A stretch of DNA of 64,000 nt from an uncultured delta proteobacterium (GTDB taxonomy: Bacteria > Desulfobacterota > Desulfobacteria > Desulfobacterales > SG8-13). The stretch is taken from contig CAWKCK010000017.1 of NCBI GenBank assembly GCA_963848135.1, forward strand, positions 962,538-1,026,537, given 5' to 3'. Position 1 is the stretch's first letter; each line of letters opens with the position of its first letter. The position numbers are program-made. Of this stretch, positions 1 to 6,000 are shown in pieces.

Positions 1-3000
1 GGTATTGAACAAAAATAACGCCGCCAGGGAAAAGCAGATAAAAATCAGGGCAGGAATCAGATTACGCATACTTTAGGCAGTCCTTTGATATGAATCGGGA
101 AATGGGTTATTTGTGGAAGGGCAATCGTCGTTACCCACTAATTTCTTTCTGTTGTTCCTGCTCCTTGATCTTCTGCTTGAGGCGATCGATGACCTGCTTT
201 GCTGATTCTTTTTCGAATAGATCCCGAAACTGGATTTGATAGTTTTGGACCAGGCTGACGCCTGCAACATAAACGTCGTAAATTTTCCACTGACCCTCCG
301 TTATACGCATGCTATAATCAACGTCTATATTCCCGTCCGAGGATGGAACTCTGGTTTTGACTTTGGCCCGTTTACGGGCCTGGTCGATATCCTGGTCGAG
401 ATATTCAACGGTCATCCCTTTGTCGTCTCCACTGATCCGGGTCAGATACGTGTTGCCGAGAAAATGGGCAAAGAGTTCCGTAAATTCCTGCCGCTGCTGG
501 GGAGTAAAGCTGTTCTCCCAATGGTAGCGGCCGGTTGCCCTTTTGGCTATCAGGTCGAAGTCAAACATGGGTTTTGTAATCGATCGGATTTTCTCGCGTT
601 GATCACCGCGCCGGGCAGGATCATCATACTGTGGATCATCGAGAATCTCAATCACCTGTTGTATAGGAGCTTTGAGCGCATCGACCGGCTGTCCGATTTC
701 AGCAACCGCTGAAAGTGCGGTCAATAGAATGATCGACAGGCAAATGGTACCTTTCACATAAAACTCCTTTGGTAAATTATATTCTTAATTTAAGGCGAAC
801 AAGGCAATCGGTTGACAGTTGATTTCAACCCACCGACTACACCTGTCCGAAAACAAATTTGCTGATCAACTCCTCGATGTCTACCGCGGATTCGGTTTCT
901 GTTATCATCTCCCCCGGTTTCAAAGGAACATCTGACACCCCCGGAGATATCTTTATGTACTTGTCTCCGATAAGCCCTGTCGATTTGATCGAAGCAATCG
1001 CATCCTCTGTTAGCGTGACGTTCTTTTCAATCTTCATCTTGACCACGGCCATCCAGCGTTCCTGGTCCAGAGCAATTCCTTCCACCTGTCCGATGGGCAC
1101 CCCGGCAACCTCCACCTGCGACCCGGTTTTCAATCCCGCTATCGACTGAAATCGCGCGGAAATTGAATAGTAATTGTCACCGATGATTTCCATTTTCCCG
1201 AGACGTATGGTTAAATACCCTATACAGACAATGCCGATAAGCACGAAGATACCCACAGCAGTCTCCGTCGACAATTTTCTCATCTTGCCTCCCTTTCTTT
1301 AGCACACACGGAACTCGAACAGGCTTTCCTTCTTGGCTTCGGCACTGGCCAAAACCTGTTCGATATTGCTTCCCTTTTGGGCCTCGACAATACCGGCACT
1401 GACCGTAAAACAGGTGTTCGGTTGGGGCAGGATCTCCACGAGATCCTCGGCCTTGATCAACTTGGCTAGCTTGGCACAAAAAGCCCGTGCCTGCGCTTTG
1501 TTCGTATTGGCAAGCACCAGCAGTATTTTGTTCATACCGTAGCGTGAGCAGGTATCGGTGATACGAATATGGTGCTGCAACTGTAGGGCAAAATTTTTCA
1601 ACGCCAACTGGCTGGCTTTGTATCCAATCGATTCAATAACTTCATCGAGATCTTGAACGGTCAACAACACCAGTGAAAATGCTATTTGGTGGCTCTGCAG
1701 GCGCAACATCTCTTCTCGGAATTTTCTATCACCGGCTTGCTGTGATGCCAGCCCCGTGAGGTCGTCGCGACGACTTTCAAGACCAGTGATAAATTGCCGG
1801 ACCAGCGCGTCTTCCGTGTACTGAATCTCTTCGGCTGTACCTTCGAAAAGTATTTTGCCTTCCTCCAGCATGGCAATGCGTTGGGAAATGTAGAAGATAT
1901 TGGGGATGTCGTGACTGACGACAACACCCGTGAATCCGAATTTTTTCTGGTAATCCGAGATCATGCTGTAAACGACACCTTTGCGGATCGGATCCAAGCC
2001 GGTTGTGGGTTCGTCAAAAAGAACGATTTCTGGATCCGTCACTAATGCCCTGGCCAGCGCCACCCGTTTCTTCATACCACCTGAAAGGTGAGAAGGATAT
2101 TCATCGTCGATATTGTGCAGATCGAGTTTCGCCATTTTATCATGTACCCGATCACGAATTTCTTCCCGCGGCAGGGATGATTTTTCCGCCAGCGGCAACG
2201 CAATGTTCTCAAATATCGTCATCGAGTCGAAAAGGGCCGTACCCTGAAACATGTAACTGAACTTGCGTTTAATGTCCGCCCGTTCCTTTTTGGGGGCAGC
2301 GCCCAAAGGTGTACCGTTGAAAAGTATCTCCCCCGAATCCTGCCGGACAAGACCGATGATATGTTTTAACAGAACACTCTTACCGACACCGCTTTTACCG
2401 ATGATCGAGGTGATCAACCCCTTGTAGATACTGAGGTTGAGACCGTCAAGAACCCGGTGGTTGCCGAAACTTTTGGATACATTCTTAAATTCTATTAACG
2501 GCTGGTCCATCAAACCTCACAGGAGGAAGGAAGTCAGAACATAATCTGTCACGAGAATCAAGACACAGGATTGAACCACCGCAGAGGTGGTTGATGAGCT
2601 GACACCTTTGGCGCCCTGTCCATTCGATCGACGGTGGGTGTTATATCCATAGTAGCAGCAGATGGTAATGACCACTACGGCAAAAACAATGGATTTGATA
2701 AATCCACCGGTAATATCCGTCATGAGGACGCTCGATTCAACCCGTGAGAAGTAGACCCCCGAGCTGAGTCCCAGCAGAACCGAGCCCGTCAGATACCCGC
2801 CAAAAATACCAATGACATCAAACAGGGCGGTTAAAATCGGAAAGCTGATCAGGGCAGCGGCAATCCTGGGACTGATCAGAAACTGTATCGGATTGATGTT
2901 CATGGTTTCCAGGGCATCGATCTGCTCTGAAATGCGCATGATCCCGATTTCTGCCGACATGGCCGATCCGGCCCGTGCGATGACCATAATGGCCGTTAGA

Positions 3001-6000
3001 ACCGGTCCCATTTCGCGAACCAGGGTTAGTGCAACCGCCGAGCCGAGTGAACCGGTAGAGCCGTATTTGACCAGTACGTAATATCCCTGCAGCCCCAGAA
3101 CCATGCCGGTGAATGCCCCGGTCAGACAGATGACGAATATCGACCGCGAACCGATAAAATTTATCTGTTGGAGAGTTTTCGGCACAATGGTGGGCAAGGT
3201 AAAGATCGAGGCGAATCCCTTGGCAAAGAAAATCATGATATAGCCCATCTCCCGCACCAGTGATATGGCAGATCGGCCAAGGGTGGTGATAGGCGAGGCA
3301 ACGGATTCTGATCGGTTCATGCAGGGTATCCCTATTTGACGATTCTCAATTGTCGTACTGGTGTTTAACACAAAGTATTAAATTTATCGCATCAGACTGA
3401 ATAATGTCAAGAAACCATTGCATCCCTGAAATATGCTCAAAATATTATTAAGATCTTACATTCAACCCGTAGTTGACATTTCTGGTTAAGGCCATTCGAA
3501 GCAAAGCTTGAAGACGGGACCGGCACGCGCTAATATAAGAGGTTAGACAAAGACGGCATTTATATAATAATGAGGGCCCCTGAAATGATCAGTATCGAAA
3601 ACTTATCTAAACGATTCGGAGATCATATCATTTTCGACACCGTCGGGTTCCAATTGAACCGTCGGGAACGTCTGGGGCTGGTCGGAAGGAACGGTCACGG
3701 TAAAACCACCCTGTTCAAAATGATCAGCGGCGAGGAACAACCAGATGAAGGCACCATAAATATTCCAAAGAACTACCGTATCGTTCATGTTCACCAAATG
3801 GTTGCCTTTACCGAGGAAACTGTTTTATCGGAGGCCGCGGTCGATTTACCGGAACACGAACGCGATCACCTGTGGAAAGCCGAGAAAATTCTCAGCGGTC
3901 TCGGTTTTTCAGACGAGGATATGCAACAACACCCTGGAATATTCTCAGGCGGATTCCAGGTCCGTCTCAATCTGGCCAAAGCCCTGGTGGCCGAACCCGA
4001 TCTGCTTCTGCTCGATGAACCGACCAACTATTTGGACATCACGTCCATAAGGTGGGTTAAAAGCTTTTTTCTGACCTGGCCGCGGGAGCTCATGCTCATC
4101 ACCCATGACCGCAGTTTCATGGACAGCATCGTGACCCATACCATGGGGATTCACCGTCAAAAATTGCGCAAAATAGCCGGTGGAACGGATAAGTATTATG
4201 CCCAGCTCGCCCAGGACGAGGAGATATACGAAAAAACCAGGCTGAACGACCAGCGCCGCCGCAAGGATATCGAGCAGTTCATCAATCGATTCCGCGCCAA
4301 AGCCAGATTGGCGAACCTTGTTCAATCACGAATCAAAACCCTTCAGAAAATGGAAAAACATGAAAAGCTCGAAAAGATCAAGACGCTAGATTTTTCGTTC
4401 AACAACGAGCCATTTCACGGGAAACATATGCTGAGCGCTGAGAACCTCGGCTTCTCGTACCACCCCCCAAAACCGTTGATTGATAATTTCAGTATGACCA
4501 TTACCGCCAATGACCGGATTTGTATCGTCGGTAAAAACGGTCGCGGTAAGACGACCCTTCTCAGGCTTCTGGGGGCAAGTCTTCGGCCAGGGGTCGGGAA
4601 CATTCGAAAGAACCCGAACCTATCCATGGGAACATTTGAACAGACCAATCTGAAAACACTCGTTGACACCCGTACGGTGGAGGAAGAAATCAATTGCGCC
4701 AATCCGGATATCAGCCGCCAGGCCGCTCGAAATATCTGCGGTGCAATGATGTTCGAAGGCGACAATGCGTTGAAAAAGGTGAGCGTGTTGTCCGGCGGCG
4801 AGAAGAGCCGGGTCATGCTTGGCAAGCTGCTGGTCACCCCGGTCAACCTCCTGCTACTGGACGAACCGACCAATCACCTGGATATGGAATCGTGCGACGC
4901 CCTGCTAGCCGCCCTGGATAATTTCGACGGGGCGGTTGTCATGGTCACGCACAACGAAATGTTTCTGCATCTTCTGGCACGCCGGTTGGTCGTGTTTCAA
5001 CCGGAAGGCATAGAGGTATTCGAAGGCAGCTACCAGCGTTTCCTTGAAAAAGATGGATGGCGGGAAAATGCCTTGCCCATAGCGACAGGATCCGCAGATA
5101 CGATGACCGCAGAAAAACCGGAGAAGGTCAACAGAAAAGAGCTGCGGCGCCAACGATCTGAATTGCTGGCGGAACGCGCCCGCATTCTGCGGCCCCTCGA
5201 GCAGGCCATATCTGCACTTGAAAATGAAATCGACACCAATGAAAAAAAACTCGATCGTCTCACCCAGGATATGCAAAAGGCGACCTCAGCCGGTAACGGG
5301 AATCAGATCGCCGAACTCTCCCAGGCCATTCATGCCTGCCAATCGGCAATAGACCGGCTATTTGACACGCTTGAAGCCCGCACAGAGGATTATGAAAACC
5401 ACAGGCGCGCCGCCGAAGAAAAATTGACAGACTTCGACACCTGATCAAATAATGCAATAACGGATCATGAACAGCTCCGATAGTGCCCCTGCTCAAATCA
5501 GCGTGGTTGCAAGGGTGCCTATTATATGATTTATATCGCTTTTTTAAAAAATTTTCTCAATATGGAAGTGGTGTCAGTGGTTGGTGAAAAAATGTTCGAA
5601 TAACGGCACGTTTTTTAGCGACCCCAATACAAGGCTGTCGCTGAGACAGACCCGGAAGGAAAATTATGAAAGCCCAACGAATCCTCGTTGTTGAACAAAA
5701 CGGAAGTGGTGAGCAAAAGGTCAAGGGTCTTTTGACCCATGGCAGCGATTCATTTTTGGTTGAACGCTGGAGCATCGACACGCCGTTGGAACCGGTAATC
5801 GATGATGCCTCCGAATATCTACCAAAGAAAATCGACGCCGATCTCGTTCTCGATTTTTTGAAGCATCCGGACCTGACCCAGGATCTGGCGGAAATCTGCC
5901 GGCGTCAGGGAATCCCGGTTGTGGCTTCCGGGAAAAAACTGCGGCTGGAAGGGGTTTTGACACCGCCGACCTGATGTGGCCTTCCCCGGCAGGTGGGCCT

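What a model noticed while it worked through the whole genome (the two positions that open the first line are those of the whole stretch)
1..3320. Mla lipid-transport ATPase MlaF fused to a degenerate GGDEF domain, in an operon without MlaB
In the operon mlaE-mlaF-mlaD-mlaC-mlaA (g04378-g04374), the ABC ATPase MlaF (g04377, C17:963836-965047, 403 aa) carries a ~155-residue C-terminal GGDEF-fold domain (248-392). Its signature is degenerate: SRYGMNKILLVL where active cyclases have RxGGDEF. It is therefore a candidate sensor or interaction module, not a cyclase, and the NCBIfam name 'diguanylate cyclase' is misleading. The operon has no MlaB (STAS) gene. The genome's second Mla-like system instead has STAS fused to MlaE (g00411, C2:174242-175384). 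The fused MlaF recurs in Desulfobacterales.
Evidence so far: - pfam.tsv: ABC_tran 21-170 (E 3e-35) and GGDEF 248-392 (E 1e-16). Swiss-Prot MlaF proteins align only to residues 1-244. - Sequence and gene order. - search_genomes over 25 Desulfobacterales: matches reaching residue 394-403 in single frames in 11 genomes (this one included, 39-100% identity). The other genomes with a match have a plain ~250-aa MlaF. 18 of 25 have any match at E<=1e-60. - Paper search 'MlaF'+'GGDEF': 7 papers hold both words and 4 were listed; none is about a fusion, judging by title and abstract. The finding spans contig positions 961752 to 965857; this window holds only 962538 to 965857 of it.
(Added by a program. 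Inside this text positions count along the whole contig: contig position 962,538 is position 1 of the stretch shown here. "Call 12" and the like, gene names such as g00115 and contig names such as C1 are that model's own, and its searches are not shown. The text may have been shortened before it was handed on; [...] marks where a part breaks off. The agent that wrote the report below was given it as the finding of a first reader that could run no searches.)

Follow-up and report, generated by a model that had tools for sequence, protein, structure and literature searches.

The report
Lipid-transport ATPase with dead cyclase domain
The ATPase of an outer-membrane lipid transporter (Mla) in a sulfate-reducer relative carries a catalytically dead diguanylate-cyclase domain that still has the pocket residues for the messenger c-di-GMP, so it may link membrane lipid upkeep to that signal.

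Summary
On the minus strand lies mlaE-mlaF-mlaD-mlaC-mlaA. MlaF (404 aa from TTG, 403 from ATG) has an intact ABC domain (1-244) joined directly to a GGDEF-fold domain (245-404; Pfam 60 bits; Foldseek TM 0.79 to SiaD).

It is not a cyclase. GG[DE]EF is GMNKI, and the metal- and guanine-binding positions are replaced.

New here: the c-di-GMP inhibitory site is kept. R317-x-x-D320, K348 and R271 map onto PleD R359/D362/R390/R313. In 126 close relatives they are kept in 110, 126, 102 (K/R) and 122.

The fusion is old and common. At least 38 of 400 other genomes of the phylum have it, in 16 families, always in mla operons. All 21 sampled fusion proteins (20 relatives plus the query) fall in one clade.

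"Replaces MlaB" is not supported. I tested 63 ORFs flanking 20 fused and 19 of 20 plain operons, and none has STAS. The closest plain MlaFs end 2-7 residues after the ABC domain. One nested lineage deleted the domain and kept the operon.

Best reading (about 0.45): an accessory regulatory domain that senses c-di-GMP and gates the ATPase. Binding is untested. I found no paper on this architecture. It is a new variant of known kinds.

The parts
2517..3371 (-). mlaE, the permease of the Mla ABC transporter (284 aa from GTG)
   Evidence: Pfam MlaE 4.3e-78. NCBIfam TIGR00056 243.5 bits, above its cut-off of 212.2.
1299..2513 (-). mlaF fused to a GGDEF-like domain. 404 codons from TTG 2513; the likelier start is ATG 2510 (403 aa). 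The stop is at 1299-1301.
   Evidence: A 100%-identical 403-aa protein is on record (P0002).
1782..2513 (-). ABC nucleotide-binding domain, residues 1-244, with all catalytic motifs: Walker A GKSGVGKS at 39, signature LSGGM at 143, Walker B LFDEP at 165, H-loop SHD at 200
   Evidence: One search gives the motif positions. ABC_tran 4.9e-35. The best NCBIfam model is MlaF (210 bits, below its equivalog cut-off of 441). LSGGM is the Mla/TGD-type signature according to PMC7367683 (passage read).
1302..1781 (-). Catalytically dead GGDEF-fold domain, residues 245-404
   Evidence: Pfam GGDEF 60 bits. AF2 model of residues 241-404: pLDDT 83, pTM 0.80. Foldseek against PDB: SiaD 7e6g TMq 0.79, E 6e-11, then PleD, WspR and GcbC.
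1524..1538 (-). Former active-site hairpin, G326-M-N-K-I330, in place of GG[D/E]EF. It is conserved in the clade as a new motif, G-[LM]-N-K-I.
   Evidence: Alignment to WspR. Counts in 126 close relatives: G 116, L/M 124, N 99, K 112, I 120.
1554..1565 (-). RxxD inhibitory-site motif (R317-I-T-D320), five residues upstream of the former GGDEF motif
   Evidence: It aligns with WspR RSSD. It is in the same register as the genome's own intact cyclases. R is kept in 110 of 126 and D in 126 of 126.
1470..1472 (-). K348, the counterpart of PleD R390 (third residue of the primary I-site)
   Evidence: A +42 offset follows from the alignment ranges (query segment 8-131 against 9g85_A 294-417). The residue's role is taken from PMC7288161. 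K or R is present in 102 of 126.
1701..1703 (-). R271, the counterpart of PleD R313 (the arginine given to the I-site by the neighbouring GGDEF domain)
   Evidence: Same mapping as for K348. R is present in 122 of 126.
837..1283 (-). mlaD, the MCE-domain subunit (148 aa)
   Evidence: Pfam MlaD 4.2e-22. NCBIfam TIGR04430 163.4 bits, above its cut-off of 135.
131..757 (-). mlaC, the periplasmic lipid carrier (208 aa)
   Evidence: Pfam MlaC 1.1e-40.
1..69 (-). First 23 codons of mlaA, the outer-membrane lipoprotein (284 aa). The rest lies upstream of the window.
   Evidence: Pfam MlaA 1.4e-64 on L001:3753-4607. Translation of window 1-69.
3381..3410 (-). Promoter-like site (TTGACA, 18 nt, TAAATT) just upstream of mlaE. 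This is a consensus match only.
   Evidence: 7 sites were found against 4.9 expected in shuffles, so this is weak.

Best explanation
The gene encodes the ATPase of a genuine Mla outer-membrane lipid transporter. Its C-terminus has gained a GGDEF domain that can no longer make c-di-GMP but keeps the product-inhibition (I) site.

Proposed mechanism:
- The two MlaF subunits of the transporter each hang one such domain beneath the ABC dimer.
- Intercalated c-di-GMP dimers bind R317/D320/K348 of one domain and R271 of the other. This cross-links and immobilises the two domains, as in product-inhibited PleD.
- That restrains the opening and closing of the ABC domains, so ATP-driven phospholipid transport follows the cell's c-di-GMP level.

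The domain is an accessory regulator, not an obligatory structural part.

Shown here: the fold, the loss of the catalytic site, conservation of the four I-site positions, the operon context, the age of the fusion and the fact that it can be lost, and the genome's own cyclases and phosphodiesterases.

Inferred: ligand binding, pairing of the two domains, and the direction of the effect on the ATPase.
For: (1) Bona fide Mla context.
- The order mlaE-F-D-C-A is confirmed by Pfam and NCBIfam.
- With my crude ORF caller, 18 of 20 fusion loci from other genomes have MlaE called directly upstream, 18 of 20 have MlaD directly downstream, and 12 of 20 have MlaA in the same cluster.

(2) GGDEF fold.
- Pfam 60 bits.
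- The AF2 topology is that of a GGDEF domain.
- Foldseek gives TMq 0.72-0.80 to SiaD, PleD, WspR and GcbC.

(3) Dead catalytic site.
- GGEEF is replaced by GMNKI.
- The DxD metal site is T285/Q287.
- The positions of PleD N335 and D344 are I293 and Q302.

(4) I-site kept.
- RITD aligns with WspR RSSD.
- It stands in the same R-x-x-D-x3-R-x-motif register as this genome's own intact cyclases.
- With the +42 offset, the four PleD I-site residues named in PMC7288161 (passage read) fall on R317, D320, K348 and R271.
- In 126 close relatives these are R 110, D 126, K/R 102 and R 122. Mean identity of the whole domain to the query is only 53%.
- WspR also has Lys at the K348 position (alignment).
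- Over 211 fused proteins, rows with RxxD (120) have R/K271 in 113 and R/K348 in 95. Rows without RxxD (91) have them in 47 and 12. These rows are related, so this is not an independent test.

(5) The messenger is available. The genome has 17 GGDEF matches, 11 with an intact [GA]G[DE]EF motif, and 2 EAL matches.

(6) The domain is accessory.
- All 21 sampled fusion proteins form one clade (support 100/99) that also holds 5 plain MlaFs.
- It also holds one truncated protein (G116). That protein is 77% identical to its fused sister through residue 264 and then stops, with mlaD following directly.

(7) Precedent.
- C-terminal domains of ABC ATPases commonly regulate association of the nucleotide-binding domains in response to small molecules (PMC7367683, passages).
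- In P. aeruginosa, c-di-GMP already touches the Mla pathway through sRNA control of mlaA (PMC13613067, abstract only).

(8) Two plain mla operons of the phylum carry a small cyclic-nucleotide-binding protein inside the operon. This suggests that nucleotide-messenger input into Mla recurs in this phylum.
Against: - No binding data exist.
- R317 is replaced in 16 of 126 close relatives. In 8 of these it is Glu or Asp, which should abolish I-site binding.
- Whole clades of the fusion family lack RxxD altogether: the HEAR..SGEI, AGSR..NEF and GYCR types, found in families f97, f66, f41 and others. c-di-GMP sensing therefore cannot be the function common to all fused MlaFs.
- The third I-site residue is Lys, not Arg.
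- The mapping of R271 and K348 assumes a gap-free alignment to PleD between residues 252 and 375. This is inferred from equal range lengths, and I did not see it residue by residue.
- The former active-site hairpin (G-[LM]-N-K-I) and four cysteines are at least as conserved as the I-site. This points to some further or different function.
- The counts come from related sequences and overstate independence.
Confidence: 0.45

Rival explanations
1. Ligand-independent dimerisation or stabilisation module. The folded domain holds the two MlaF subunits together, or docks on the ABC domain. It would do the job that the C-terminal 'handshake' tail and MlaB do in E. coli.
For: - In E. coli the ~25-aa MlaF tail and MlaB are both needed for complex assembly, and a GCN4 dimerisation domain partly rescues a tail-less MlaF (PMC7367683, passages).
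- This genome has no MlaB-like gene. Of 6 STAS matches only one is a small stand-alone protein, and it sits next to an anti-sigma-type kinase.
- Its two other MCE systems carry an N-terminal extension on MlaE. One of these is STAS by Pfam; the other has no Pfam match.
- The GGDEF domain starts directly after the ABC domain with no linker.
- Clades without RxxD still keep the domain.
Against: - The closest plain MlaFs (57-61% identical in the ABC domain, same operon order) end 2-7 residues after the ABC domain. No STAS was found among the operon-flanking ORFs tested at these loci (1-2 per locus, none at L056), and their MlaE is not extended.
- G116 lost the domain without visible compensation.
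- A plain scaffold would not need the four I-site positions kept at 81-100% while the domain as a whole drifts to 53% identity.
Confidence: 0.25
2. Sensor of something other than c-di-GMP. One option is a redox or metal signal read by the four conserved cysteines. Another is a different nucleotide or a protein partner bound at the remodelled active-site hairpin.
For: - The protein has exactly four Cys, all in this domain (C322, C346, C368, C404).
- In 126 relatives they are kept in 124, 123, 102 and 100. The ABC domain averages 0.08 Cys.
- C368 and C404 are kept or lost together: both present 94, neither 18, discordant 14.
- Q302 (121 of 126) and G-[LM]-N-K-I are clade-specific conserved motifs at the old substrate site.
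- Degenerate GGDEF domains that bind GTP or hydrolyse ATP are known (PMC7288161, passage).
Against: - By the predicted strand order, the two cysteine pairs probably lie on opposite edges of the sheet. This is my inference; I had no coordinates.
- Buried cysteines are common in anaerobes.
- The usual phosphate-binding C-terminal motif of GGDEF domains is not recognisable.
- This reading does not explain why the I-site is kept.
Confidence: 0.15
3. An active diguanylate cyclase with an unusual motif, as the database name implies.
For: - The Pfam GGDEF match is above its cut-off.
- A source names a 61%-identical protein 'diguanylate cyclase'.
Against: - GG[DE]EF is GMNKI.
- The metal-binding Asp and the guanine-binding Asn and Asp are replaced.
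- None of the fused proteins inspected, including those with the best Pfam scores (GGKEF, SDSVF, KEDSF, RGDMF), has an intact motif.
Confidence: 0.02

Closest known systems
E. coli MlaF in the MlaFEDB complex
   Same: - An ABC ATPase with the Mla/TGD-type LSGGM signature.
- Encoded beside mlaE, mlaD and mlaC.
- The best NCBIfam model is MlaF (PMC7367683, passages).
   Different: - It has no MlaB partner and no ~25-aa handshake tail. A 160-residue folded domain follows the ABC domain instead.
- The gene order is E-F-D-C-A, with mlaA inside the operon.
- It scores 210 bits, below the equivalog cut-off of 441.
Degenerate GGDEF c-di-GMP receptors that use the I-site (PelD of P. aeruginosa; I-site inhibition in PleD and WspR)
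   Same: - GGDEF fold.
- The catalytic motif is lost, as in PelD.
- RxxD is kept five residues upstream of the motif, together with a basic residue at the PleD R390 position.
   Different: - It is fused to an ABC transporter ATPase, not to a membrane/GAF module or a receiver domain.
- It has Lys where PleD has R390.
- Binding has not been tested.
- No sequence match to PelD appeared in the PDB search at E up to 1.
C-terminal regulatory domains of ABC ATPases (MetN ferredoxin-like C2, MalK and ModC TOBE domains)
   Same: A folded domain follows the ABC domain directly. In those systems the paired domains beneath the transporter control association of the nucleotide-binding domains in response to small molecules (PMC7367683, passage).
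   Different: - The fold here is GGDEF.
- It is not among the C-terminal domain types that paper lists from its survey of 379 ABC structures.
- I found no paper on a GGDEF domain fused to an ABC ATPase.
OpuA/OpuC osmolyte importers, whose CBS domains bind c-di-AMP (recalled from memory; no paper read here)
   Same: A cyclic dinucleotide acting on a domain fused to the C-terminus of an ABC ATPase to gate transport. This is the closest functional analogy.
   Different: The messenger, the domain fold and the transporter class all differ. The comparison rests on recall only.

Membership tests
MlaF (ATPase of Mla/MCE ABC transporters) | ABC domain with intact Walker A, signature, Walker B and H-loop | tested here: met
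   GKSGVGKS at 39, LSGGM at 143, LFDEP at 165, SHD at 200. ABC_tran 4.9e-35.
MlaF (ATPase of Mla/MCE ABC transporters) | Signature motif ending in Met (LSGGM), typical of Mla/TGD systems | tested here: met
   LSGGM at 143-147. The criterion is taken from PMC7367683 (passage).
MlaF (ATPase of Mla/MCE ABC transporters) | Encoded with MlaE, MlaD, MlaC (and MlaA) | tested here: met
   The arrangement is conserved in the sampled fusion loci.
MlaF (ATPase of Mla/MCE ABC transporters) | Score above the NCBIfam equivalog cut-off (NF008809) | tested here: not met
   210 bits against a cut-off of 441. It is still the best-scoring model, matching residues 4-245 only.
GGDEF domain (Pfam PF00990) | Profile score above the gathering cut-off, and GGDEF fold | tested here: met
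   60 bits against 23.8. Foldseek TMq 0.79 to SiaD, with 97 PDB matches at E <= 0.001.
Diguanylate cyclase (enzyme) | GG[D/E]EF active-site motif | tested here: not met
   The motif is GMNKI. In 126 relatives the third position is N in 99 and D in 23, and the second is never G.
Diguanylate cyclase (enzyme) | Metal-binding Asp (PleD D327) and guanine-binding Asn/Asp (PleD N335, D344) | tested here: not met
   These positions are T285, I293 and Q302 by the +42 mapping. The role of D344 is from PMC7288161. The roles of D327 and N335 are recalled.
I-site c-di-GMP receptor (PelD-like degenerate GGDEF) | RxxD five residues upstream of the (former) GGDEF motif | tested here: met
   R317-I-T-D320. R is kept in 110 of 126 and D in 126 of 126.
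I-site c-di-GMP receptor (PelD-like degenerate GGDEF) | Additional basic residues at the PleD R390 and R313 positions | tested here: met
   K348 (K/R in 102 of 126) and R271 (122 of 126). The mapping assumes a gap-free alignment. Lys stands in place of Arg.
I-site c-di-GMP receptor (PelD-like degenerate GGDEF) | Measured binding of c-di-GMP | not testable with these tools
   This needs purified protein.
MlaB / STAS partner of MlaF | A STAS-domain protein encoded in the operon or fused to a subunit | tested here: not met
   There is no STAS in the operon. None of the 63 flanking ORFs tested at 20 fused and 19 of 20 plain loci has one. The genome's only small STAS protein sits beside an anti-sigma-type kinase.
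C-terminal regulatory domains of ABC ATPases | Folded domain directly after the ABC domain | tested here: met
   The domain begins at about residue 245 with no linker.
C-terminal regulatory domains of ABC ATPases | The two domains pair beneath the ABC dimer and change ATPase activity on ligand binding | not testable with these tools
   This needs a structure of the complex and ATPase assays.

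The most novel reading that the evidence does not exclude
c-di-GMP directly gates an MCE/Mla phospholipid transporter through an I-site-only GGDEF domain fused to its ABC ATPase. 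This would be the first GGDEF-type regulatory domain on an ABC transporter. It would also be a post-translational link between the biofilm/motility messenger and outer-membrane lipid homeostasis, and it would be ancient and widespread in Desulfobacterota, possibly also in Nitrospirota.
Probability: 0.4. Interest if true: 0.8.

Novelty: new variant of a known kind. Interest (0 to 1): 0.6.

Why it matters
How Mla transporters are regulated is an open question. In E. coli the only known handle is MlaB, whose signal is unknown. Here a large natural family of MlaF proteins carries a recognisable sensor domain with a defined candidate ligand. That makes regulation of outer-membrane lipid transport directly testable by binding assays, ATPase assays and structures.

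It would also add a new output to c-di-GMP signalling (envelope lipid homeostasis) and a new fold to the set of ABC regulatory domains.

On the practical side, the database name 'diguanylate cyclase' for these proteins is wrong and inflates cyclase counts in Desulfobacterota genomes.

Tried and rejected
- Complex prediction. I asked for two copies of residues 245-404 with c-di-GMP riding along. The first job (alignment A2, 4 ligands) failed technically. The second job (alignment A1 cut to 245-404, 2 ligands) gave no verdict: score 0.29 against a mark of 0.42, and the controls were not run. This says nothing for or against pairing.
- Riboswitch or other RNA upstream of the operon: nothing credible in window 1-6000 at E up to 1.
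- Promoter and terminator scans were no better than shuffles.
- Literature. The searches were 'MlaF'+'GGDEF' (7 papers, none about a fusion by title and abstract), 'degenerate GGDEF'+'ABC transporter'+'c-di-GMP'+'ATPase' (8 papers), 'Mla'+'c-di-GMP'+'outer membrane lipid asymmetry' (11 papers) and 'ABC_tran'+'GGDEF' (6 papers). None describes this architecture. Supplements were not read.
- A single 4-Cys metal site. I considered this and put it aside, because the predicted strand order places the C322/C346 pair and the C368/C404 pair on opposite sides of the sheet. I had no coordinates, so it is not excluded.
- Independent multiple origins of the fusion. The tree does not require this. A single origin with later losses fits, but the base of the clade is unresolved.
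- The third MCE system's MlaE N-terminal extension shows no detectable similarity to the STAS part of the second system.

Full report
**What is there**

The first 3.4 kb of the window carry one minus-strand operon, with Pfam hits:
- mlaE at 2517-3371 (MlaE, 4e-78).
- mlaF at 1299-2513.
- mlaD at 837-1283 (MlaD, 4e-22; NCBIfam OM_asym_MlaD 163 bits, above its cut-off).
- mlaC at 131-757 (MlaC, 1e-40).
- mlaA, whose first 23 codons are window 1-69. The rest lies upstream (MlaA, 1e-64).

The genes are tightly packed. The mlaE stop is at 2517-2519 and a GAGG lies 4 nt before the ATG at 2510, which is the likelier mlaF start (403 aa).

MlaF has two parts:
- Residues 1-244 form an ABC domain with every catalytic motif intact. 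This includes the LSGGM signature that Kolich et al. describe as typical of Mla/TGD systems (PMC7367683, passages read).
- Residues 245-404 match Pfam GGDEF (60 bits, cut-off 23.8).

That includes the STAS-MlaE fusion in the second MCE system. A third MCE system has an MlaE with a 160-residue N-terminal extension and no Pfam match.

**The C-terminal domain is a GGDEF fold that cannot be a cyclase**

AlphaFold2 with a 92-row alignment gives pLDDT 83 and pTM 0.80 for residues 241-404, with the helix and strand order of a GGDEF domain. The full-length model has pLDDT 82.8 and pTM 0.72. Foldseek against the PDB returns only diguanylate cyclase domains at the top: SiaD at TMq 0.79 and E 6e-11, then PleD, WspR and GcbC.

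In the phmmer alignment to WspR, GGEEF aligns with G326-M-N-K-I330 and the DxD metal site with T285/Q287. The alignment ranges to PleD (query segment 8-131 against 9g85_A 294-417) give a constant +42 offset. The coincidence of the two RxxD motifs confirms this offset. With it, PleD D344, which binds the guanine of GTP (PMC7288161, passage), corresponds to Q302.

I inspected the motif positions of 211 fused relatives and read 29 of the sequences in full. None has an intact GG[DE]EF. Even those with near-full Pfam scores have GGKEF, SDSVF, KEDSF or RGDMF. The name 'diguanylate cyclase' given by one source is therefore wrong.

**The inhibitory site is kept**

This is the new point.

RITD (317-320) aligns with WspR's RSSD. 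It stands in exactly the register R-x-x-D-x3-R-x-motif seen in this genome's own intact cyclases.

The review PMC7288161 (passage) describes each I-site as formed by R359, D362 and R390 of one PleD GGDEF domain plus R313 of the neighbouring one. It says two c-di-GMP dimers cross-link and immobilise the pair. With the +42 offset these four residues are R317, D320, K348 and R271.

Conservation in 126 close relatives (at least 63% identical in the ABC domain):

| Position | Kept in |
|---|---|
| R317 | 110 |
| D320 | 126 |
| K/R348 | 102 |
| R271 | 122 |

The domain as a whole is only 53% identical to the query on average, against 71% for the ABC domain. WspR itself has Lys at the K348 position.

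Across 211 fused proteins the basic residues go with RxxD:

| Rows | R/K271 | R/K348 |
|---|---|---|
| With RxxD (120) | 113 | 95 |
| Without RxxD (91) | 47 | 12 |

The rows are related, so this is description and not a test.

The genome can make and break the messenger. It has 17 GGDEF matches, of which 11 have an intact motif, and 2 EAL matches.

**Against the c-di-GMP reading**

- R317 is replaced in 16 of 126 close relatives, in 8 of them by Glu or Asp.
- Whole clades of fused MlaFs have no RxxD at all.
- The former active-site hairpin is conserved as a new motif, G-[LM]-N-K-I.
- The protein's only four cysteines (C322, C346, C368, C404) all lie in this domain. They are kept in 124, 123, 102 and 100 of 126, and C368 and C404 are kept or lost together. 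These features are not explained by I-site binding.
- The mapping of K348 and R271 rests on equal range lengths. I did not see a residue-by-residue alignment.

**Distribution and history**

- The 120 best-scoring 90%-identity clusters listed are 59-100% identical to the query, 402-414 aa long, and have the same two Pfam domains.
- A search of 1.8 billion representatives finds many further proteins of about 400 aa at 35-56% identity. Their C-terminal domains range from clear GGDEF to unrecognisable by Pfam.
- Among 400 other genomes of the phylum, at least 38, in 16 families, have a single open frame matching to residue 356 or beyond. This is a lower bound, because only the best rows are listed. 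Three genomes have two copies.
- ESM Atlas clusters with this architecture are mostly Thermodesulfobacteriota. One is mostly Nitrospirota, with few members having a known phylum.
- In a maximum-likelihood tree of the ABC domains (43 rows), all 21 fusion proteins fall in one clade with 100/99 support. That clade also holds five plain MlaFs and one truncated one.
- The truncated one (G116) is 77% identical to its fused sister through residue 264, which is inside the start of the GGDEF domain. It then stops, and mlaD follows directly. This is a secondary deletion.

**Does it replace MlaB?**

I fetched 13-kb neighbourhoods of 20 fused and 20 plain MlaF genes.

Fused genes sit in mlaE-F-D-C(-A) operons. 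With a crude ORF caller, MlaE is called upstream in 18 of 20, MlaD downstream in 18 of 20, and MlaA is in the cluster in 12 of 20.

My ORF caller left 164 unclassified same-strand ORFs in these clusters. I sent the 63 nearest to the mla genes to Pfam: 31 from the fused loci and 32 from 19 of the 20 plain loci. None has a STAS domain.

Among the plain relatives:
- MlaE is 256-314 aa, so no STAS is fused to it.
- The five plain MlaFs inside the fusion clade have tails of 2-28 residues after the ABC domain. Those of the three same-order genomes (G206, G292, G112) have 7, 3 and 2.

So relatives with neither MlaB, nor an E. coli-type tail, nor a fused domain exist beside the fused ones, and the domain has been lost at least once. 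The complementary pattern that 'replacement' predicts is absent.

The idea is not refuted outright:
- In E. coli the tail promotes dimerisation, and a GCN4 zipper partly replaces it (PMC7367683).
- This genome has no MlaB-like gene elsewhere.
- I did not search the plain genomes for unlinked STAS genes.

**How it most likely works**

C-terminal domains of ABC ATPases such as MetN, MalK and ModC generally regulate association of the nucleotide-binding domains in response to small molecules (PMC7367683). The GGDEF domain here follows the ABC domain without a linker, so any fixing of the two domains relative to each other would be passed on to the ABC dimer.

I therefore propose that c-di-GMP dimers bridge the I-site of one domain and R271 of the other, as in product-inhibited PleD. 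This would alter ATPase turnover, and with it phospholipid transport. The direction of the effect cannot be told.

My odds:
- about 0.9 that this is a non-catalytic accessory regulatory domain;
- about 0.45 that its signal in this clade is c-di-GMP;
- about 0.25 that it is a ligand-free dimerisation or stabilisation module;
- about 0.15 that it senses another ligand or redox state;
- about 0.02 that it is an active cyclase.

One link between c-di-GMP and Mla has been reported, in P. aeruginosa. It acts at the RNA level, on mlaA (PMC13613067, abstract only).

**Novelty**

Four literature searches found nothing on a GGDEF domain fused to MlaF or to any ABC ATPase. I read titles and abstracts only, and did not read supplements.

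Both ingredients are known kinds: degenerate GGDEF receptors, and C-terminal regulatory domains of ABC ATPases. The combination and its place in the Mla pathway are new, so I rate it a new variant of a known kind.

It matters because it offers a defined, testable regulatory input into a lipid transporter whose regulation is unknown.

Noticed in passing
L070:8807-9280 (+) and L073:4380-4847 (-): Two plain-MlaF mla operons of other genomes in the phylum (G052, G106) carry a small stand-alone cyclic-nucleotide-binding protein (157 and 155 aa; cNMP_binding 9e-16 and 3e-18) inside the operon, next to mlaC and mlaA. This may be a separate-gene counterpart of a nucleotide-messenger input into Mla.
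   Followed up: partly
window 1302-1304, 1410-1412, 1476-1478, 1548-1550: The protein's only four cysteines (C404, C368, C346, C322) all lie in the GGDEF-like domain and are conserved in 100-124 of 126 relatives. C368 and C404 are kept or lost together (both 94, neither 18, discordant 14). The ABC domain has almost no Cys in the whole clade. The cysteines might be a redox or metal site, or simply buried packing residues.
   Followed up: partly
L060, L062, L064, L066, L067 (plain-MlaF loci): One clade of plain systems has a TolC-like outer-membrane efflux protein (OEP, 453-463 aa) encoded between mlaD and mlaC, and no mlaA in the cluster. It looks like a different envelope-spanning variant of the MCE system.
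   Followed up: no
L057:6001-6861 (+), genome G116: A MlaF of 286 aa is nested inside the fusion clade. It is 77% identical to its fused sister through residue 264, keeps a decayed start of the GGDEF domain (ELTDP in place of ELTGL), and then terminates. This is a natural deletion of the domain.
   Followed up: yes
L003:3055-4188 (-), own genome C2:571054-572187: The MlaE of the third MCE system has a ~160-residue N-terminal extension with no Pfam match and no detectable similarity to the STAS part of the second system's MlaE. It may be a very divergent STAS or a different cytoplasmic module.
   Followed up: partly
G147:C15:480-1685 and 4746-5972; also G362 and G299: Three genomes carry two fused MlaF paralogues. 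In G147 they lie 3 kb apart on one contig (60% and 41% identical to the query). The closer copy belongs to the sub-clade that has Glu at position 317 and has lost C368 and C404.
   Followed up: no
L074:3722-4054 (-) and neighbours, own genome C3: The genome's only small STAS protein lies beside an anti-sigma-type kinase (HATPase_c_2), a cNMP-binding protein and an 838-aa fused ABC exporter. This looks like a partner-switching module, possibly attached to that exporter.
   Followed up: partly
window 3570-5444 (+): An ABC-F type protein (two ABC_tran domains plus ABC_tran_Xtn; 624 aa) is transcribed divergently from mlaE, with a 198-nt intergenic region between the two genes.
   Followed up: no
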